Source of the DNA: a virus
Taxonomy: Duplodnaviria; Heunggongvirae; Uroviricota; Caudoviricetes
Length of the DNA stretch: 26,233 nucleotides
Direction: 5' to 3' (one strand)
Virus record (IMG/VR): IMGVR_UViG_2565956629_000010
How positions within the stretch are numbered: the stretch's first letter is position 1; every line of letters starts with the position of its first letter. Below, in pieces: positions 1,140-14,022 of this stretch. The translations under genes and the position numbers were made by a program. The notes under the pieces were generated by a model that saw only the letters and a program-made list of their open reading frames with translations, was not told where the DNA came from and did no database searches.

Positions 1140-2657
1140 TTAATCAAATGATGTGGCCAGTTCAATTAATTCAATGTAATTATGTAAGGCATAAAAAGAT
1201 GTATTCAGACCATTCTCTATAAGGGCTCCTTGCAAATACTTTATAGCTGTATCACCATCAATAGGGCCTTGTTGAGATATAATCATTAGTGAATTTTGCC
1301 CATTGTTTTTTATACTTGATTTAAGCATGTTTATATTATTAATAAAATACAATGCAACATCTAAGTAATTTATTAATGTTAAATTTATTTTGGGCTCGAT
1401 CTGTGAGATGAATAATCTACTGCTCGCCGTTCTATAGATATAATTGACACCTATTCTTTGCTGATTTGTATCAAGATTTAATTCAAGGATGGCTTGAGAA
1501 ACACCTTTTAAATTGGAGCTTTGCTTTATCGAATCAGTGAAACGTTGTGCTGCATTTCTTCGACCAATTAGTCCATCTATAATTTGACGATCCTTATCAT
1601 ATATAATCATTAGCGAAATTATAAAAATATAATCTACTTTCTTTTTGACTAAATCAGATTTAAGAATGTCTATTAACCTTTCAGTATTTCGGATTGAGTC
1701 TCTTAGATTTAACCCAAATGCTTCAAATACGTTGGAAATATTTATTGAAAAGTCTTCTAATGTTGCTGTTAGTGGGTATGTTTTTGATGTGATATTTTCA
1801 AAATCGGTACCAATATAATCACCAACAACACCATTAATTAAATCTTTAAGTTCAGGTTGTTTTAAAGTAAATCTTCTATGAAAAAAACGGCCTAAATAGT
1901 CATTTGCGGAAAAATCATTACCGTAAACATTCTTGATTGAATGTTGTAATTGATCTGTGTCAGTAGCAATAATAAAGACAAAATTTTTAATATCGAATAT
2001 ATGTTTAACAATCTCTAAAAGAGAAATTGCATAATCTGGCCTGCATCTGTCTAATTCATCTATAAAGATAAATATAGGACATGAAAAACTATTTTCATAT
2101 GCCAACCTAGACCATAACGTTAGTTCTTTTTTTAATACCTTAATGCTCTTCAGTTTTTCCTGGTGTTCCTTCAGCATTATTAATGAGGCTTCTTTGGCTA
2201 TATCACCTACGTTATCTACTCCTGCATAAGTCTTGATTAGGCCAGATATGATTTCAGGTAGAACACCTTTTGTAAAGCGTCCGATAGCATGGCCGCTTTG
2301 TATCAATCGAGCATCAAGTTTTCCTGCATATGTTTGCAATTGTTGTGACAAAGAAGAAAAAAGGGTTAAAAATGCATCATCAGAAAAGTCTTGCTTCCAG
2401 GCATCAATGTAAACGCATGGGTGTGCATCTTTTATTGAGTTATAAAATCTCTTTATGAAAAAACTTTTACCAGCTCCCCATTCTGCATTAAGGTTGATTA
2501 CCGTGTTGTTCTTTTGCCCCTTTTCCTTAAGATAAAAATATAGATATTCTGCATAGTGTCTCCGATTAAGTTTGTCTTTGGAAAGAATTTCCTCTTCGTC
2601 GTCTAATATAAAGGTAGTTTCTTCATCCCAGTTCCAATTACAATCACCACATTTCAC
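1140..2657 (-). CDS. KAP-family P-loop NTPase (putative defence or abortive-infection effector)
   Basis: 505-aa ORF. Walker A NAEWGAGKSFF; Walker B-like hhhhDELDRC (IFIFIDELDRCRP), which I recall as characteristic of KAP NTPases. GTG start at 2657 with GGAG about 9 nt upstream. Visibly AT-rich compared with flanking phage genes. Only 25 bp downstream of the preceding gene on the same strand. Confidence 0.55.
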   Translation of the reverse strand: MKCGDCNWNWDEETTFILDDEEEILSKDKLNRRHYAEYLYFYLKEKGQKNNTVINLNAEWGAGKSFFIKRFYNSIKDAHPCVYIDAWKQDFSDDAFLTLFSSLSQQLQTYAGKLDARLIQSGHAIGRFTKGVLPEIISGLIKTYAGVDNVGDIAKEASLIMLKEHQEKLKSIKVLKKELTLWSRLAYENSFSCPIFIFIDELDRCRPDYAISLLEIVKHIFDIKNFVFIIATDTDQLQHSIKNVYGNDFSANDYLGRFFHRRFTLKQPELKDLINGVVGDYIGTDFENITSKTYPLTATLEDFSINISNVFEAFGLNLRDSIRNTERLIDILKSDLVKKKVDYIFIISLMIIYDKDRQIIDGLIGRRNAAQRFTDSIKQSSNLKGVSQAILELNLDTNQQRIGVNYIYRTASSRLFISQIEPKINLTLINYLDVALYFINNINMLKSSIKNNGQNSLMIISQQGPIDGDTAIKYLQGALIENGLNTSFYALHNYIELIELATSFD

Positions 2658-5929: not shown

Positions 5930-6156
5930 TGGCTGATGCAATGGATCTCGTACAGCAGCGCGTTGAAGAAGAACGCCAGCGTCATATCCGTGCTGCCCGC
6001 GCCAAAACGCCGGGCGTATCCCGCGTGCTTTGCATTGAGTGTGAAGCACCAATTCCGCCAGCACGACGTCGCGCCATTCCGGGTGTGCAGCTTTGCATTA
6101 CCTGTCAGGAAATCGCAGAGCTGAAAGGCAAACATTACAACGGAGGTGCTGTATGA
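5929..6156 (+). CDS. TraR/DksA-family C4 zinc-finger protein
   Basis: 75 aa with CIECEAPIPPARRRAIPGVQLCITCQE, a C-x2-C-x17-C-x2-C pattern typical of TraR/DksA-type zinc fingers found in P2-like early regions. Confidence 0.65.
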   Translation: MADAMDLVQQRVEEERQRHIRAARAKTPGVSRVLCIECEAPIPPARRRAIPGVQLCITCQEIAELKGKHYNGGAV

Positions 6157-7010
6157 GCACCATCCTGAAATGGGCGGGTAATAAAACCGCCATTATGCCA
6201 GAACTGAAAAAATACCTTCCTGCTGGCCCGCGACTGGTTGAACCTTTCGCGGGTTCTTGTGCTGTGATGATAGAGACGGATTACCCCAGCTATCTTGTTG
6301 CGGATATTAATCCTGATTTAATCAACCTCTATAAAAAGGTTGCTGCTGATTGCGAGGCGTTTATATCTCGTGCCAGAGCTTTATTTGAGGAAGCAAACAG
6401 GGAGGTGGCTTATTACAACATAAGGCAGGAGTTTAATTACTCCACTGAAATTACTGATTTCATGAAAGCGGTATATTTCCTGTATCTCAATCGTCATGGT
6501 TACCGTGGGTTATGTCGCTATAACAAGAGCGGGCATTTCAACATTCCCTACGGGAATTATAAAAATCCGTATTTCCCTGAAAAAGAAATTCGCAAATTTG
6601 CAGAAAAAGCCCAGCGAGCAACGTTTATCTGCGCCAGCTTTGATGAAACGCTGGCGATGTTGAAGGCGGGGGATGTGGTGTATTGCGATCCGCCTTATGA
6701 CGGTACGTTTTCCGGCTATCACACTGATGGCTTCACTGAGGATGACCAGTATCACCTGGCATCCGTTCTTGAACATCGATCATCTGAAGGTCATCCGGTC
6801 ATTGTTTCTAACAGTGACACATCCCTGATTCGTTCGCTGTATCGCAATTTCACTCACCACTACATCAAGGCAAAACGCAGCATCGGCGTGTCGGCTGGCG
6901 AGAGTAAATCTGCAACAGAAATCATTGCTGTTTCCGGGGCGCGCTGCTGGGTGGGATTTGATCCTTCGCGTGGCGTGGATAGTTCTGCTGTGTACGAGGT
7001 GCGTGTATGA
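6153..7010 (+). CDS. dam: Dam-type DNA adenine (GATC) methyltransferase
   Basis: True start ATG 6153 with GGAGG at 6143-6147; the ORF track extends upstream spuriously. Resembles E. coli Dam along its length: [35 protein letters not shown] catalytic motif ([10 protein letters not shown]). Confidence 0.85.
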
Positions 7011-9574: not shown

Positions 9575-9763
9575 ATGCAGGACTATTTTTTGGAGTCTTT
9601 GAAGCTCCAGCGCATTGATTTTTTTCTTAAGCTTGTAGCGGCTAGTGAGTGTAGTGATGAAGAGAAGGGGCTGGCTCTGCAGTGGGTTTCTGAATTGACT
9701 GATGAACTCATGGCAAAAATCAGAAGCCACGAATACAACCGCTCAATGGATGTCATCAGCTGA
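9575..9763 (+). CDS. small SOS-controlled protein, possible Tum-like antirepressor
   Basis: ATG at 9575 with AGGAGG at 9565-9570. 62 aa. Sits between the LexA box and the DinI-like gene; in 186 the LexA-controlled gene at this position is tum, whose C-terminal part I recall as DinI-like. Assignment is by position only. Confidence 0.35.
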   Translation: MQDYFLESLKLQRIDFFLKLVAASECSDEEKGLALQWVSELTDELMAKIRSHEYNRSMDVIS

Positions 9764-9773
9764 GGTGACTTTT

Positions 9774-10007
9774 ATGCGCATTGAAATAATGATCGATAAA
9801 GAGCAGAAGATTAGCCAGTCTACCCTGGACGCCCTTGAATCCGAGCTTTACCGCAATCTGCGCCCCCTGTATCCCAAAACGGTAATTCGCATTCGCAAAG
9901 GTAGCTCTAACGGTGTGGAACTAACCGGACTGCAACTGGATGAAGAAAGAAAACAAGTGATGAAAATTATGCAGAAGGTGTGGGAGGACGACAGCTGGCT
10001 GCATTAA
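9774..10007 (+). CDS. dinI: DinI-family protein
   Basis: ATG at 9774 with GAGG at 9763-9766. 77 aa. MRIEIMIDKEQKISQSTLDALESELYRNLRPLYP...KVWEDDSWL parallels E. coli DinI as I recall it (MRIEV...ETWESADDWF), including the acidic C-terminus. Confidence 0.7.
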   Translation: MRIEIMIDKEQKISQSTLDALESELYRNLRPLYPKTVIRIRKGSSNGVELTGLQLDEERKQVMKIMQKVWEDDSWLH

Positions 10008-10199: not shown

Positions 10200-10535
10200 T
10201 TACGAATGATCATTCTGTTTAGTCTTCATGAGAAAATCCCGAATCTTTGCCAAGTTTGAATTTTCGGGGATTGAATCCATGTACGGATCACGCTCAAACA
10301 CTAATTGCTCAGATTCAACGAAAGCCTGCCACTCTACTGGGTCTAGCTCAAATCCCATTGCTGTCATATCACTTTCATCTTCCCCCTCGATCCAGTGGAC
10401 TAAATAAAACAATTCATCATCAGGAGAATCATCCTCACCATCAACAATATCAACATCGGTTACAGTGATACGTAGGGTGGGATCGATTTTTGAGACATAA
10501 ATTCCTAACTGTGGTATAGGGGGAATATTGTTCAT
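10200..10535 (-). CDS. small highly acidic protein of unknown function
   Basis: 111-aa ORF. ATG at 10535 with AAGGAG about 8 nt upstream on the minus strand. Runs of D/E (DVDIVDGEDDSPDDE, IEGEDESD). Sits between the replication/SOS module and cos, where P2 carries old/tin. Confidence 0.5.
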   Translation of the reverse strand: MNNIPPIPQLGIYVSKIDPTLRITVTDVDIVDGEDDSPDDELFYLVHWIEGEDESDMTAMGFELDPVEWQAFVESEQLVFERDPYMDSIPENSNLAKIRDFLMKTKQNDHS

Positions 10536-10847
10536 GGAAACTCCTTTTATTGGTGTTTGCTATTTGAATAAAAATACGCCAAACAGAGTGTTAACTGTGA
10601 ATATGGAAAGAATCGTTGTAAGTACCCCGCTTAGGTGTCCCATTCTATTTTAGAGGTTCTCGTGCATATGGATTATGTTATCTGAAAGTTAACTTCCGCT
10701 TCCCGTTCACAGCGAACATTCATCTTTGTAAACCCGTATGATCCGTTTTTCAAGTGGCCATTCAGATACGGATTTTTACTTCTTTGACAGTGCATGACTA
10801 TGCTGCATGAAATCGCATGATCGATTGAGGATCGTCTTTGCTCAGAT

Positions 10848-10870
10848 CCGCCAGAACTGGCGGGCTTTTG
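10848..10870 (+). terminator. candidate intrinsic terminator upstream of cos
   Basis: GC-rich inverted repeat CCGCCAG (10848-10854) / CTGGCGG (10857-10863) with a very short loop, followed by GCTTTTG. Confidence 0.3.
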
Positions 10871-10914
10871 CTCATGTCATGCATGTGCATGAAAACCACT
10901 GCATAAAGCGGGCA

Positions 10915-10933
10915 GGCGTGGCGGGGATACGAG
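10915..10933. other. candidate cos site (cohesive-end region)
   Basis: GGCGTGGCGGGGATACGAG followed by CGCGCGC. From memory the P2 left end begins GGCGAGGCGGGGAAAGCAC, giving a 13-nt core match with one mismatch. It is a GC-rich island in an otherwise AT-rich non-coding stretch, and its orientation toward Q is the same as in P2. Confidence 0.4.
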
Positions 10934-11014
10934 CGCGCGCAATGCTATGATCTGGCTCTTTCAAAACTGTTAACGGTTCTTCACATTCTTAAATGATCAT
11001 GGTAGCTTAAGCAT

Positions 11015-11145
11015 GCACATGTAGGCAGATTTGTTGGTTGTGGTATCGCAATCAGTGATCTAAATGTTAGATGGATTCGCCTTCTGACATCCTTGTAGCC
11101 ATTCTTGGGCTGTCCTATGCTTTGCGTAAGAGTGCCTACATGTGC
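11015..11145 (+). ncRNA. putative retron msr-msd locus bounded by a2/a1 inverted repeats
   Basis: Perfect 13-bp inverted repeat GCACATGTAGGCA (11015-11027) / TGCCTACATGTGC (11133-11145) enclosing 105 nt, immediately upstream of the RT gene on the same strand. A G at 11028 directly follows the left repeat (possible branching G). Internal stem ATCTAA-ATG-TTAGAT at about 11058-11072. Possible promoter -35 TTCACA (10980-10985). Confidence 0.5.
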
Positions 11146-11180
11146 CTACCCTAACTGATAATCAAGGTTGATTTTTAGAT

Positions 11181-12938
11181 ATGGCACCCCTATCAATTTT
11201 AGAACGTTTACAAAACGCTGCTAACAGGCAAGATTTGGCTAGTATCTTGAATCTTAAAACTGCTTTTCTTACGGATGTTATTTATCGTTTAAAAGCTGAA
11301 ACGCAGTATACACAATTTACTATTCCTAAAAAAAACGGAGCGCCGAGAGTCATATCAGCACCTACCACTAAGCTCAAAGATATTCAACGTAGATTAGCTG
11401 ATGTTTTATATTTATGTCGTGCAGAAATTTATAAAAAATATAATATTAATCCAGTTTTATCTCATGGGTTTGAAAAAGAAAAGTCAATTATTACGAATGC
11501 TGAACGGCATAGAGGTAAAACGCTACTACTAAATATAGATCTTGAGGATTATTTTGATAGTTTTAATTTTGGACGTGTTAGAGGTTTTTTCTTATCAAAC
11601 AGAGATTTTAGATTAAATAATACTGTTGCTACAACGATCGCACAAATTGCATGTTTTCAGAATGGACTTCCTCAAGGAAGCCCATGCTCTCCAATTATAA
11701 GTAACTTAATCAGTGGAATTCTTGATATAAGATTATCAAAGTTAGCAAAGAAATACGGATGCAATTATTCACGGTATGCTGATGATCTTACATTTTCAAC
11801 TAATAAAAAAACATTTCCAAAAGAGATTGCTGATGTTGGCGGAGAGTCTGTAACCCTAAGTCCAACTTTAATTAAAGAGATTATAAAGGCTGGCTTTAAA
11901 ATAAATGATAAAAAGACAAGGGTTTGTTATAAAACATCACGACAAGATGTTACTGGGTTGACTGTTAATAAAAAAGTGAATGTTGGCAAAGAATATGCAA
12001 AAGTAACGCGTGCAATGGCTCATTCTCTTTATAAAGATGGTTCTTTTGTTATTGTTACTGAATCAGGAAAGATTGAAAAAGGTACATGTGCTAAATTAGA
12101 AGGCCGTTTTGGATTCATTGACTCAATAGATAAATATAATAATTTAAAACTAAAGAACGCAAGACAGTTGGAAAAGTACCAAAGTGTAAATCATGGATTA
12201 AACTACACTGCAAAATTGAATTCGAGAGAAAAAGCCTACAGTTATTTTCTATACTATAAAAATTTTCATGGAATGGAAATGCCAACAATACTCACTGAGG
12301 GTAAAACAGACCGTGTATATTTAAAGTGTGCTTTGAAGTCATTGGCGAATTCATATCCTTTATTGTTTAATTCTTCTGATGATAGCTCTAAAAATGAGTA
12401 TCGTGTTAATTTTTTTAAAGCAACTGAAAAAACAAGCTATTTTCTTGACATTTCTGGCGGTGCTACAGACTTCAAAAGATTTATATTAAGATACCAAGAA
12501 CAAAAAAAGAGGTTCGAGAAATTTAAACCAAAGCACCCTGTTATTATGCTTCTTGATAATGACTCAGGCCCTAAAGATTTATTAAATCACTTAAAGGATA
12601 AAGTAAAAAATTGTCCAAATGATGTTGATACTATTCGTAAGGCAAGGTATACCCACATATTTGACAATCTCTATTTGTTATTAACACCATTGCTTCCTGG
12701 AGGGAAAGAGTCTTGTATGGAGGATTTATTTGATAGCACGGTACTATCAACGGTGCTTGATGGAAAGACATTTAATAAATCTAATGATACGGATACAAAA
12801 ACAGAATATGGTAAGCATGTGTTTTCAACAAAGGTTATAAAGGCAAATTGTAAAACAATTAGTTTTGAAAAGTTTAAAGTTATTTTTGATGGTATTGAGG
12901 AAATTATTGCAGATTATTCAAAGAGGTGCAAAGTATAA
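11181..12938 (+). CDS. retron-type reverse transcriptase with C-terminal Toprim-like domain
   Basis: 585 aa. RT motifs: FTIPKKNGAPRVISAP, LLLNIDLEDYFDSF, LPQGSPCSPIISNL, and the catalytic YADD in YSRYADDLTFS. The C-terminal half has Toprim-like EG..D (PTILTEGKTDRVYL) and DxD (VIMLLDNDSGPKD). AT-rich. Length is close to the 586 aa I recall for the retron-Ec67 RT. Confidence 0.8.
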   Translation: MAPLSILERLQNAANRQDLASILNLKTAFLTDVIYRLKAETQYTQFTIPKKNGAPRVISAPTTKLKDIQRRLADVLYLCRAEIYKKYNINPVLSHGFEKEKSIITNAERHRGKTLLLNIDLEDYFDSFNFGRVRGFFLSNRDFRLNNTVATTIAQIACFQNGLPQGSPCSPIISNLISGILDIRLSKLAKKYGCNYSRYADDLTFSTNKKTFPKEIADVGGESVTLSPTLIKEIIKAGFKINDKKTRVCYKTSRQDVTGLTVNKKVNVGKEYAKVTRAMAHSLYKDGSFVIVTESGKIEKGTCAKLEGRFGFIDSIDKYNNLKLKNARQLEKYQSVNHGLNYTAKLNSREKAYSYFLYYKNFHGMEMPTILTEGKTDRVYLKCALKSLANSYPLLFNSSDDSSKNEYRVNFFKATEKTSYFLDISGGATDFKRFILRYQEQKKRFEKFKPKHPVIMLLDNDSGPKDLLNHLKDKVKNCPNDVDTIRKARYTHIFDNLYLLLTPLLPGGKESCMEDLFDSTVLSTVLDGKTFNKSNDTDTKTEYGKHVFSTKVIKANCKTISFEKFKVIFDGIEEIIADYSKRCKV

Positions 12939-12948
12939 CTGTAATTAC

Positions 12949-12972
12949 AGGCAAAGAGTATGCTCTTTGCCT
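12949..12972. terminator. hairpin between the convergent RT and portal genes
   Basis: 10-bp perfect stem AGGCAAAGAG / CTCTTTGCCT with 4-nt loop TATG, followed on the plus strand by TGTATTGT. Lies in the 49-bp gap between the RT stop (12938) and the Q stop (12988). Confidence 0.45.
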
Positions 12973-12987
12973 TGTATTGTGGGACGA

Positions 12988-14022
12988 TTACATATCTAAG
13001 TTATATTCTGTAAATGCGATAATATCTGTACCTAACCAGACATTAATCTCCTTGATCCGTTTTTGCATTGATATCAATTCGTTTCTTACGAATACCTTAC
13101 TAGCCTTTTCCACATCCCCAAACCCCCCAACATTATTAGGCATAATCCCCATCATTTGCGGCGGCACGCGGTGCGCAGCCATCATGTCATCGCGGCTGAC
13201 ATTTTTGATATTCAGAAACTCATCCTTCGCCGCGACCTCTGACAACGGGATAATCTGAAGCCCGTCTTTTTTGCCGTTAGGCGAGTACATAAACAGATTG
13301 CGGAAGTTGCCAGGGCCTTTGGCGCTTTTCATCGCATTGCGGAGGTTGTTCACATCCTCCTGGTTCTGCGCGGCATCGGTCATGTACATGATGAAGCCTG
13401 CATGACTACCGTTAATGTAATATTTGCGGCGGAACAGCGTGGCGGACTCGTTGAGCAAAGCGGATGGGATGGCAGAAAGATAGCCGGGCAGGCCGTAGAT
13501 CTCCTGATTAATATCCGGTTCCATCAGATGAAAAATGCTGCCTTTCGTGAACTGATACGGCTGGGTTGTCATACCGTATTGCACAAACCAGTAGATATCC
13601 AGGTCTAACCCGCGTCGGGTATATTTTGCCAGGGCAGGCTCAAGGGCGATAACTTCACCGAAGCGGTTCGTGCGTTTCTCCAGGTAGGCGTTACCAAATA
13701 CCAGGTAGTCCTGCACAAAACGTGAAAAAGCCTGCTGGCTGAGCAGCGGGTGAGGGATATAGGTACTGGTCAGAATGTTGCACTTTACTGCAATCGGGGA
13801 ACTGTGATGCACGGCAGCGCGGAAGGTGCGCGCCAGTCCGTCAAAGCTGACGGGCGGCTCATACCAACGGTCCATCTGTACGCATTCCACATAGTCCAGT
13901 AATTCTCGGCGGTCCAGAACAGGAACGGGATCGCCGAAGCTGAATGCTTCGGCTGTAGTTTGACTTTTAAGCTGGATCTGATTCGTCGCCGCAGCGCGGT
14001 TCTTCTTACTCTTTCCCATCAA
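12988..14022 (-). CDS. Q: portal protein (P2 gpQ-like)
   Basis: 344 aa, same length as P2 Q as I recall it. Overlaps the terminase gene by 4 nt and is transcribed with it, divergent from the O operon. Confidence 0.85.
   Translation of the reverse strand: MMGKSKKNRAAATNQIQLKSQTTAEAFSFGDPVPVLDRRELLDYVECVQMDRWYEPPVSFDGLARTFRAAVHHSSPIAVKCNILTSTYIPHPLLSQQAFSRFVQDYLVFGNAYLEKRTNRFGEVIALEPALAKYTRRGLDLDIYWFVQYGMTTQPYQFTKGSIFHLMEPDINQEIYGLPGYLSAIPSALLNESATLFRRKYYINGSHAGFIMYMTDAAQNQEDVNNLRNAMKSAKGPGNFRNLFMYSPNGKKDGLQIIPLSEVAAKDEFLNIKNVSRDDMMAAHRVPPQMMGIMPNNVGGFGDVEKASKVFVRNELISMQKRIKEINVWLGTDIIAFTEYNLDM

What the first reader, a model, noticed from the sequence alone, without database searches (positions are those of the whole stretch)
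11015..11145. Retron msr-msd candidate defined by a perfect 13-bp a2/a1 inverted repeat
GCACATGTAGGCA (11015-11027) and its exact reverse complement TGCCTACATGTGC (11133-11145) bracket 105 nt immediately upstream of an RT gene, with a G directly after the left repeat. The enclosed length fits an msdRNA of about 58 nt plus an msDNA of about 67 nt with a short 3' overlap, the dimensions I recall for msDNA-Ec67. No ORF is predicted in this stretch.
Basis: partly seen in the sequence, partly recalled or inferred. Interest (0 to 1): 0.6.

Follow-up and report, generated by a model that had tools for sequence, protein, structure and literature searches.

The report
Ec67-family retron msr/msd gene
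The 13-bp inverted repeat is real and marks the non-coding RNA gene (msr/msd) of a type I-C retron, a diverged sibling of the well-studied anti-phage retron Ec67/Eco2, carried in the known defence hotspot of a P2/186-like E. coli prophage; it is a correct call of an ordinary, already understood kind of element.

Summary
Observation confirmed. GCACATGTAGGCA (11015-11027) and TGCCTACATGTGC (11133-11145) are a perfect 13-bp inverted repeat with a G at 11028, ending 35 nt upstream of a 585-aa RT-Toprim gene (11181-12938).

The retron reading is supported. The RT is a PADLOC type I-C RT-Toprim (E 2.7e-223) and 57% identical to the structurally solved Retron-Eco2 (Ec67). The 131-nt stretch matches the published Eco2 ncRNA element for element.

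In 46 distinct type I-C ncRNAs (RT identity 31-100%), all 12 a2/a1 pairs and 5 of 7 msr-hairpin pairs show compensatory changes. A covariance model built only from distant, non-E. coli relatives gives one significant hit in the 26-kb window: 11016-11144 (+), 84 bits, E about 3e-20.

It is not Ec67 itself. The msd centre is unrelated, and the predicted msDNA is about 66 nt. The 2.1-kb, 31%-GC cassette replaces the Ec67 cassette between cos and the portal gene of an otherwise 99.5%-identical prophage.

The likely mechanism follows Eco2: branched msDNA cages the Toprim nuclease, phage nucleases destroy the msDNA, and tRNA cleavage follows. This allele is unannotated at the RNA level and untested. 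It is a new member of a known kind and of low interest.

The parts
10915..10933 (+). cos-like cohesive-end site of the 186/P2-like prophage, immediately left of the retron cassette
   Evidence: GGCGTGGCGGGGA is a unique match in the window. It aligns with the annotated cos at bases 1-19 of phage 186 NC_001317, about 15 of 19 identical by eye.
10941..12987 (+). Retron cassette (promoter, msr/msd, RT-Toprim, terminator-like hairpin) swapped into the cos-portal slot
   Evidence: The flank is 99.5% identical to the Ec67-bearing prophage L004 up to 10940, and identity resumes (93%) at 13043 inside the portal gene. GC is about 31% against 43-60% in the flanks. The right edge is imprecise; the portal stop codon is at 12988.
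10980..11008 (+). Putative sigma-70 promoter: -35 TTCACA (10980-10985), 17-nt spacer, -10 TAGCTT (11003-11008), predicted start near 11014-11015
   Evidence: Read from the sequence; inference only. It falls below the threshold of the consensus scan. The position agrees with the Ec67 msdRNA 5' end 14 nt before the branch G.
11015..11027 (+). a2 (IRa2), the 5' arm of the closing stem
   Evidence: I3. The 12 stem pairs all show double-sided compensatory changes across 46 ncRNAs.
11028..11028 (+). Predicted branching (priming) guanosine, equivalent to rG15 of Eco2, within CAGA
   Evidence: G and the following A are invariant in all 46 aligned ncRNAs. The CAGA context is reported for Eco2 (PMC6868368) and the rG15-dT1 2',5' bond is seen in cryo-EM (PMC12405507).
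11029..11032 (+). ssRa, the single-stranded AUUU linker
   Evidence: Identical to Eco2 rA16-rU19.
11033..11056 (+). msr stem-loop (RSL). The covarying helix is 11036-11042 with 11047-11053; the loop is GUAU, 1 nt longer than in Eco2
   Evidence: 21 of 24 positions identical to Eco2. 5 of 7 pairs show compensatory changes and 96.6% of cells are paired.
11057..11065 (+). ssRb, ending in the conserved AAAU. U11065 is the predicted flipped-out stop nucleotide (Eco2 rU51)
   Evidence: Homology mapping. Eco2 termination occurs at G52:dC67 with U51 stacked on F46, and F46 is conserved here.
11066..11131 (-). msd. The + strand RNA is the template, and the predicted 66-nt msDNA has the - strand sequence 5'-TCTTACGCAAAGCATAGGACAGCCCAAGAATGGCTACAAGGATGTCAGAAGGCGAATCCATCTAAC-3'
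   Evidence: Mapping onto Eco2: dT1 lies opposite the A two bases 5' of IRa1, and the last template base is G52. The ends are predicted, not measured.
11132..11132 (+). Unpaired spacer G between the msd template and a1, part of the near-invariant GCGUAAGAG|U motif
11133..11145 (+). a1 (IRa1), the 3' arm of the closing stem
11181..12938 (+). RT-Toprim fusion protein (585 aa), the retron type I-C reverse transcriptase and effector
   Evidence: Pfam RVT_1 5e-27. PADLOC RT-Toprim_I-C 2.7e-223. PDB 9lm3/9i2f 'Retron Ec67 protein' 5e-217. YADD, F46, R184, H281 and the Toprim residues E373, D377, D459, D461 and E514 are retained. RefSeq names it 'retron Ec67 family RNA-directed DNA polymerase/endonuclease'.
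12949..12972 (+). Terminator-like G+C-rich hairpin after the RT stop codon, between the RT and the convergent portal gene
   Evidence: Consensus scan only. It is not shared with the Ec67 cassette.

Best explanation
Window 11015-11145 (+) is the msr/msd non-coding RNA gene of a type I-C retron of the Ec67/Eco2 family. It is co-transcribed with the downstream RT-Toprim gene from a promoter just upstream. In the transcript, a2 (11015-11027) pairs with a1 (11133-11145) and presents the 2'-OH of G11028 to the RT. The RT recognises the msr hairpin (11033-11056), copies the msd template from A11131 leftwards, and stops at G11066 where U11065 flips out. This gives a branched RNA-linked msDNA of about 66 nt. 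By analogy with Eco2, three RT-Toprim:msDNA units assemble into a trimer in which the msDNA cages the Toprim nuclease. Phage nucleases (DenB, A1) degrade the msDNA, and the freed Toprim cuts tRNAs and shuts down translation, aborting the infection. The prophage carries the cassette as a superinfection-exclusion module in the cos-proximal hotspot. Shown here by computation: the repeat, its covariation, element-by-element homology to the Eco2 ncRNA, retention of the catalytic residues, and the cassette swap. Taken from the literature on Eco2: priming, termination, the trimer, the trigger and tRNA cleavage. Inferred for this allele: all of the biochemistry.
For: The inverted repeat and the G are as described and are improbable by chance (5 of 5000 shuffles). 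The RT is a type I-C RT-Toprim, 57% identical to the solved Retron-Eco2 protein, with catalytic and RNA-contact residues conserved. The canonical Ec67 ncRNA (L004) has the same 131-nt span. It is identical in the G plus AUUU (5/5), 21/24 in the msr hairpin, and 8/10 in the GCGUAAGAG motif. Among about 100 related loci, the best inverted repeat upstream of the RT, chosen without any G requirement, was usually an 11-15 bp repeat followed by G and spanning 123-148 nt. In 46 distinct ncRNAs, 98% of cells are paired against 31-41% when the partner is slid. All 12 a2/a1 pairs and 5 of 7 hairpin pairs show double-sided changes, and no shuffle out of 500 reaches the observed values. A test anchored on conserved motifs that ignores pairing gives 11-12 of 12 pairs at the homologous site and 2-8 at decoys. 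A covariance model built from 39 distant ncRNAs, with no E. coli allele among them, gives a single hit at 11016-11144 (+), 84.4 bits, E 3e-20; the next hit scores 9 bits. BLAST homology to other E. coli alleles begins exactly at 11015. The location between cos and the portal gene of a 186-like prophage is the site where Ec67 and Ec86 are known to sit, and it is a documented P2 defence hotspot. The Eco2 mechanism is taken from PMC12405507 and PMC12916289.
Against: There is no experimental evidence for msDNA, transcription or defence from this allele. Rfam has no matching family, so no curated RNA model supports it. The predicted msDNA has no stable intramolecular fold (z = 0.17), although the same holds for Ec67 (z = 0.04). 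The trimer-contact loop is only 32% identical, R332 (needed for Eco2 defence) is K, metal-B ligand S513 is C, and T249 is C, so assembly or regulation could differ. The promoter is weak by consensus and was not picked up by the scan. The sequences aligned in A2 were chosen by looking for an inverted repeat plus G, which inflates the pairing percentage for the closing stem. address this.
Confidence: 0.92

Rival explanations
1. It is a genuine retron ncRNA gene by descent, but the system is inactive or silenced in its host: no msDNA is made, or no defence results. Causes could be the substitutions in the trimer loop or Toprim domain, or H-NS silencing of the AT-rich cassette.
For: R332 to K, S513 to C, T249 to C, and 32% identity in the trimer loop. 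The promoter is weak by consensus. The cassette is 31% GC. A preprint turned up in the literature search reports that H-NS silences AT-rich immunity loci (10.64898/2026.09.05.749240).
Against: The ORF is intact and all catalytic residues are retained. The identical protein occurs on about 510 public contigs, and its 90% cluster has 886 members in E. coli and Salmonella. The ncRNA is 99.6-100% conserved in 14 complete genomes. Both substitutions are conservative, and C at the S513 position is the majority residue among the four E. coli alleles.
Confidence: 0.05
2. The inverted repeat is a regulatory hairpin, terminator or attenuator, or part of the cos/packaging region, and not a retron priming stem.
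For: It lies in an intergenic region about 80 nt from a cos-like site. The wider intergenic region holds other repeats and a terminator-like hairpin at 10847-10864.
Against: The stem encloses 105 nt and is not followed by a T run. It belongs to the swapped cassette, not to the conserved phage flank, which ends at 10940. The same architecture accompanies RT-Toprim genes in unrelated genomic contexts such as L002, L003 and the metagenome contigs.
Confidence: 0.02
3. It is a chance inverted repeat, or the terminal repeats of a small mobile element such as a MITE.
For: A second perfect 13-bp inverted repeat exists in the window at 12575/12770 and appears to be chance.
Against: Only 5 of 5000 shuffles reproduce it. 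Covariation is strong across 46 sequences. There is one copy per genome, not multicopy (median 1 place per genome). The covariance-model hit has E 3e-20.
Confidence: 0.01

Closest known systems
Retron-Eco2 (Ec67), type I-C1; PDB 9LM3, 9I2F/9I2G/9S1F
   Same: The protein is a single RT-Toprim fusion (585 aa here, 586 aa in Eco2). The ncRNA has the same 131-nt a2-to-a1 span. Both have the CAGA branch context, the AUUU linker, a single msr hairpin, the AAAU|G stop context and a GCG(U/A)A(A/G)GAG|U 5' template end. YADD, NAxxH, VTG, F46, R184, H281 and the Toprim E/D/DxD/E residues are shared. Both sit in the same cos-portal slot of a 186-like prophage.
   Different: The RT is only 57% identical, and 32% in the trimer-contact loop, with R332 to K and S513 to C. 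Three outer a2/a1 pairs are changed by compensatory substitutions, and the G-U wobble of Ec67 is an A-U pair here. The msr loop is GUAU rather than AAU. The msd centre is essentially unrelated (20 of 47), and the predicted msDNA is 66 nt rather than 67 nt. This allele is untested experimentally.
The common 'retron Ec67 family' allele of E. coli, e.g. next to dhaR in AR_0086 (L002), and the allele in 2021CK-01361 (L003)
   Same: The msr is near-identical, including the GUAU loop, and the GCGUAAGAG motif is the same. The a2/a1 stem is 13 bp and differs from the window at two positions by compensatory changes: T-A to C-G, and C-G to T-A or U-G.
   Different: The RTs are 53-54% identical. The span is 129 nt and the msd centre differs. 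These alleles lie in chromosomal islands, not in the P2-like prophage hotspot.
Retron-Eco1 (Ec86), type II-A
   Same: It occupies the same cos-to-terminator site of a 186-related prophage (Dodd and Egan 1996, as cited in PMC6868368). It has the same general msr/msd logic of a2/a1 plus a branch G.
   Different: It has a stand-alone RT with a separate effector, and the RT matches only at E 6e-33. Its ncRNA architecture differs: two msr hairpins and a TAGC branch context.

Membership tests
Retron (msr/msd + RT) | Inverted repeats a2/a1 flanking the msr-msd and forming the priming stem | tested here: met
   A 13/13 perfect repeat. All 12 stem pairs covary across 46 homologues. Met also in the pairing-blind anchored test.
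Retron (msr/msd + RT) | Conserved branching guanosine immediately 3' of a2 | tested here: met
   G11028. The G and the following A are invariant in the 46-sequence alignment. The context is CAGA, as reported for Eco2.
Retron (msr/msd + RT) | Adjacent retron-clade RT with YADD, NAxxH and VTG motifs | tested here: met
   Y199-A-D-D202, N106-A-x-x-H110 and V257-T-G259 are invariant among the four E. coli alleles. All best PADLOC hits are retron RT models.
Retron (msr/msd + RT) | Production of a 2',5'-branched RNA-linked msDNA | not testable with these tools
   Needs nucleic-acid extraction, urea-PAGE and debranching.
Type I-C retron (Eco2/Ec67-like) | A single protein with an N-terminal RT fused to a C-terminal Toprim nuclease, and no separate effector gene | tested here: met
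   PADLOC RT-Toprim_I-C 2.7e-223 over residues 5-583. Full-length match to PDB 'Retron Ec67 protein'. The cassette holds only this ORF.
Type I-C retron (Eco2/Ec67-like) | Complete Toprim active site (Eco2 E374, D378, D460, D462, S513, E515) | tested here: met
   E373, D377, D459, D461 and E514 are conserved. S513 is replaced by C512, which is also the majority residue in the other alleles. The paper's K562 could not be placed: that position is D in L004 and S in the window.
Type I-C retron (Eco2/Ec67-like) | The family ncRNA architecture: one msr hairpin, an AUUU linker, an AAAUG stop context and GCGUAAGAGU before a1 | tested here: met
   A covariance model from 39 distant I-C ncRNAs scores 84.4 bits, E 3e-20, full length, and is the only significant hit in the window.
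Type I-C retron (Eco2/Ec67-like) | A 3:3 trimeric RT-Toprim:msDNA assembly that cages the nuclease, with a nuclease trigger and tRNA cleavage | not testable with these tools
   Known only for Eco2. Here the trimer loop is 32% identical and R332 is K.
Retron Ec67 (Eco2) itself | The same RT and the same msDNA-Ec67 sequence | tested here: not met
   RT 57% identical. The msd centre matches at 20 of 47 positions. The exact ncRNA is absent from the census supplement, which lists Eco2.
Rfam curated RNA families | A match to any Rfam 15 covariance model | tested here: not met
   No match at E up to 1 in 10500-11700 on either strand. No curated family covers this ncRNA.

The most novel reading that the evidence does not exclude
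This allele keeps the Eco2 msr and the RT recognition elements but has an unrelated msd centre and a strongly diverged trimer-contact loop. Its msDNA cage may therefore be built differently, with a different junction or stoichiometry, and may respond to a different set of phage nucleases than DenB and A1. If so, the series of Ec67-family cassettes swapped into the same cos-portal slot would be a natural set of sensor variants.
Probability: 0.25. Interest if true: 0.4.

Novelty: new member of a known kind. Interest (0 to 1): 0.15.

Why it matters
The finding adds little conceptually. Type I-C retrons, their ncRNA layout, their mechanism and their residence in the P2/186 cos-proximal hotspot are all published. 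There are three practical points. First, the msr/msd of this common allele is unannotated in RefSeq and invisible to Rfam, although the exact protein is on about 510 public contigs in E. coli and Salmonella. The boundaries, branch G and predicted 66-nt msDNA given here would let it be annotated or engineered. Second, the 46-sequence alignment and covariance model show that type I-C ncRNAs can be found reliably from sequence. Third, this allele and Ec67 sit in near-identical prophages, which makes them a clean pair for asking what the variable msd and trimer loop contribute to trigger specificity.

Tried and rejected
Rfam scan of 10500-11700 at E up to 1 found nothing.

The consensus promoter scan found no site upstream of a2. 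The promoter proposed in the report was read by eye and falls below the scan threshold.

The genome-contig scan returned only 6 loci, so the metagenome and viral collections supplied the diversity.

tblastn against deposited phage genomes found no close relative; the best hit was 40% identical. A megablast of the left flank against phages found the conserved 150-nt cos-flanking region but no annotated cos feature. cos was instead assigned by comparison with phage 186.

The DNA fold of the predicted msDNA shows no stable hairpin, and neither does Ec67. The classical 'long msd hairpin' criterion is therefore uninformative for this family, consistent with the three-way-junction model in PMC12916289.

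The second perfect 13-bp inverted repeat at 12575/12770 was rejected as chance. It is AT-rich, arises in 38 of 2000 shuffles of the ORF, and only 4-7 of 13 positions are complementary in diverged alleles.

The MITE and terminator readings were rejected: one copy per genome, no T run, and the repeat travels with the RT gene.

The census supplement was searched for this exact ncRNA and for WP_023145585; both are absent.

L068 and L078 were dropped from the alignment because the automatic pick chose a wrong 9-bp repeat. Their true stems carry one internal mismatch. A subgroup with longer RT matches (L057, L060-L066) showed no clear homologous repeat with this search and was not pursued.

Full report
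**Observation**

The two arms GCACATGTAGGCA (11015-11027) and TGCCTACATGTGC (11133-11145) are present exactly as described. They are 13/13 complementary, with 105 nt between them and a G at 11028. The stem cannot be extended on either side.

A perfect 13-bp inverted repeat with a 20-200 nt spacer arises in 5 of 5000 dinucleotide shuffles of the 645-nt intergenic region, and in 7 of 200 shuffles of the whole 26-kb window. The + strand RNA folds at -54 kcal/mol (z = -6.2), closed by this stem.

Only a trivial 27-codon ORF overlaps the stretch. A 585-aa ORF starts 35 nt downstream at 11181.

**The neighbouring gene**

The ORF has a Pfam RVT_1 domain. Its best PADLOC match is RT-Toprim_I-C, E 2.7e-223, over its full length. 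It also matches the PDB chains named 'Retron Ec67 protein' (9LM3, 9I2F) at E 5e-217. RefSeq annotates the identical protein as 'retron Ec67 family RNA-directed DNA polymerase/endonuclease'.

Global identity to the canonical Ec67/Eco2 protein is 57%: 59% in the RT domain and 53% in the Toprim domain.

The residues that published work shows to matter are mostly retained:
- YADD 199-202.
- F46, which stacks on the flipped stop nucleotide.
- R184, which contacts the branch G.
- H281, which stacks on the msr loop.
- The Toprim residues E373, D377, D459, D461 and E514.

Four differences stand out:
- S513 is replaced by C.
- T249 is replaced by C.
- R332 is replaced by K.
- The trimer-contact loop is only 32% identical.

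**Comparison with the published Ec67/Eco2 ncRNA**

Locus L004 (E. coli FHI_NMBU_11) carries the canonical Ec67 RT and ncRNA. Its ncRNA has the same sequence and boundaries as in the supplement of the retron census (PMC10849725). It spans 131 nt from a2 to a1, the same as the window.

The cryo-EM descriptions of Eco2 (PMC12405507; PMC12916289) give these elements:
- IRa2, running up to rA14.
- Branch rG15.
- ssRa, 16-19.
- The msr stem-loop, 20-42.
- ssRb, 43-51, with U51 flipped out.
- The last template base G52, paired with dC67.
- dT1, opposite the A two bases 5' of IRa1.

Every element maps onto the window:

| Element | Window coordinates | Identity to Eco2 |
|---|---|---|
| a2 | 11015-11027 | 11/13 |
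| Branch G plus AUUU | 11028-11032 | 5/5 |
| msr hairpin (loop GUAU, 1 nt longer) | 11033-11056 | 21/24 |
| ssRb | 11057-11065 | 6/9 |
| msd template (centre only 20/47) | 11066-11131 | not computed as a whole |
| TGCGUAAGA + spacer G (template 3′ end) | 11123-11132 | 8/10 |
| a1 | 11133-11145 | 10/13 |

The branch G sits in CAGA, the context reported specifically for Eco2 (PMC6868368). The homology-predicted msDNA is 66 nt.

**Covariation**

I collected about 100 loci encoding relatives of the RT, at 31-100% identity, from genomes, viral contigs and metagenomes. Without requiring anything but complementarity, the best inverted repeat upstream of the RT was, in most loci, an 11-15 bp repeat. 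It spanned 123-148 nt, ended usually 15-50 nt (range 3-130 nt) before the RT, and was followed directly by G. The arm sequences were very different, for example GGCTTATGGGCA, GGTGTGCAGGCA, GACCCACTCGGCA and AAACGTGTGGTTA.

In an alignment of 46 distinct ncRNAs (A2), RNAalifold recovers the closing stem and the msr hairpin. Pair counts are as follows:
- 98.0% of cells form a standard pair, against 31-41% when the 3' partner is slid by 1-3 columns.
- 17 of 19 pairs show double-sided changes: all 12 in the closing stem and 5 of 7 in the hairpin.
- The covariation score is 0.777 against 0.295 in shuffles, and 0 of 500 shuffles reach the observed value.

The segments were chosen by looking for an inverted repeat plus G, so the closing-stem percentage is partly circular. 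Two tests avoid that problem:
- Anchoring only on the conserved motifs GA[TA]NN and [AT]NNGAG, without looking at the arms, gives 11-12 of 12 pairs at the homologous site and 2-8 at decoy anchors.
- A covariance model built from 39 distant ncRNAs only (RT no more than 52% identical, no E. coli allele) scans the whole window with filters off. It returns one significant hit, 11016-11144 (+), 84.4 bits, E 3e-20, full length; the next hit scores 9 bits.

Among the four E. coli alleles alone, the stem already shows compensatory changes.

**Genomic context**

The window is 100% identical to a P2/186-like prophage of E. coli Ec1117, integrated next to rcdA.

The retron lies between a cos-like site and the convergent portal gene. 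The cos-like site is at 10915-10933 and matches about 15 of 19 bases of the annotated cos of phage 186. The portal gene occupies 12988-14022.

Compared with the Ec67-bearing prophage L004, the flanks are 99.5% identical up to 10940 and resume at about 13043. Between them, the two prophages carry different Ec67-family cassettes. The cassette is 31% GC.

This is the site where Ec67 and Ec86 were reported to replace DNA between cos and a packaging-gene terminator of a 186-related prophage (Dodd and Egan 1996, as cited in PMC6868368). It is also the gpA-gpQ defence hotspot of P2-like phages, which is known to hold retrons (PMC9122126).

**Distribution and annotation**

- 14 of 5426 complete E. coli genomes carry this allele at 98% identity or more.
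- About 527 further genomes carry other Ec67-family alleles at about 66% DNA identity.
- The ncRNA is 99.6-100% conserved in the 14 genomes and has no annotated feature in any of them.
- BLAST homology to the other alleles starts exactly at 11015.
- The exact protein is on about 510 public contigs, and its 90% cluster includes Salmonella.
- Rfam has no matching family.
- The census supplement lists Eco2 but not this ncRNA.

**Mechanism**

The best-supported explanation, at confidence about 0.92, is that this is a working type I-C retron. The steps below are established for Eco2 and are inferred, not shown, for this allele:
1. The a2/a1 stem presents G11028.
2. The RT copies 11131 down to 11066 into a branched msDNA of about 66 nt.
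3. RT-Toprim:msDNA units assemble and the msDNA holds the Toprim nuclease inactive.
4. Phage nucleases degrade the msDNA.
5. The freed Toprim cleaves tRNA and stops translation.

The main residual rival is that the allele is silent or defective in some respect (0.05). A regulatory hairpin (0.02) and chance or a MITE (0.01) are effectively excluded.

**Verdict**

- This is a diverged sibling of Ec67, not Ec67 itself.
- The predicted msDNA is 66 nt.
- The RNA-DNA overlap in the mature complex is 11 bp.

It is a new, unannotated and untested member of a thoroughly characterised kind. Interest is low.

Noticed in passing
window 12575-12587 and 12770-12782: A second perfect 13-bp inverted repeat (AGATTTATTAAAT / ATTTAATAAATCT, 182-nt spacer) lies inside the Toprim-coding part of the RT gene. 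It is AT-rich, arises in 38 of 2000 shuffles of the ORF, and only 4-7 of 13 positions are complementary at the homologous positions of four diverged alleles. It is most likely chance.
   Followed up: yes
window 10789-10942: About 150 nt left of the cassette, including the cos-like site at 10915-10933, several TGCATGA repeats and a terminator-like hairpin at 10847-10864, is about 90% conserved in P2-like phages of Klebsiella, Salmonella (SopEPhi), Yersinia and Erwinia. It is presumably the cos-flanking packaging region, and no record annotates it.
   Followed up: partly
window 10200-10535 (-): A 111-aa, very acidic hypothetical protein (WP_001059831.1) has no Pfam or PADLOC hit. It is conserved next to the hotspot in prophages carrying different retron cassettes. 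An acidic small phage protein next to a defence hotspot could be a DNA mimic or anti-defence factor, but this was not examined.
   Followed up: no
window 9702-10007 (+): A DinI-like protein (Pfam PF06183, 1.2e-22) lies downstream of the replication endonuclease. From memory, this recalls the Tum antirepressor of phage 186, which fits a 186-type SOS-inducible prophage.
   Followed up: no
window about 1140-2657 (-), from L001 2541-4058: A KAP-family P-loop NTPase sits between the integrase and two CI-type repressor genes, one of them unusually long at 307 aa. It may be a second accessory or defence cargo position in this prophage.
   Followed up: no
window about 6153-7010 (+), from L001 7554-8411: A DNA adenine methylase gene lies directly upstream of, and overlaps, the replication endonuclease gene. 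From memory, this matches the Dam methylase originally described as part of the 'retron-Ec67 element', which supports the view that these elements are 186-like prophages.
   Followed up: no
loci L057, L060-L066 (metagenome contigs): A subgroup of longer RT-Toprim relatives (RT 37-40% identical, match about 1960-2060 nt) showed no clear Ec67-type a2/a1 repeat plus G within 330 nt upstream under my search. Their ncRNA may be placed or built differently.
   Followed up: no
L002 5177-6791 and L003 6281-6973: Other E. coli Ec67-family alleles sit in chromosomal defence islands. One is next to ABC-three-component system genes (L002) and one near a TIR-domain gene (L003).
   Followed up: no
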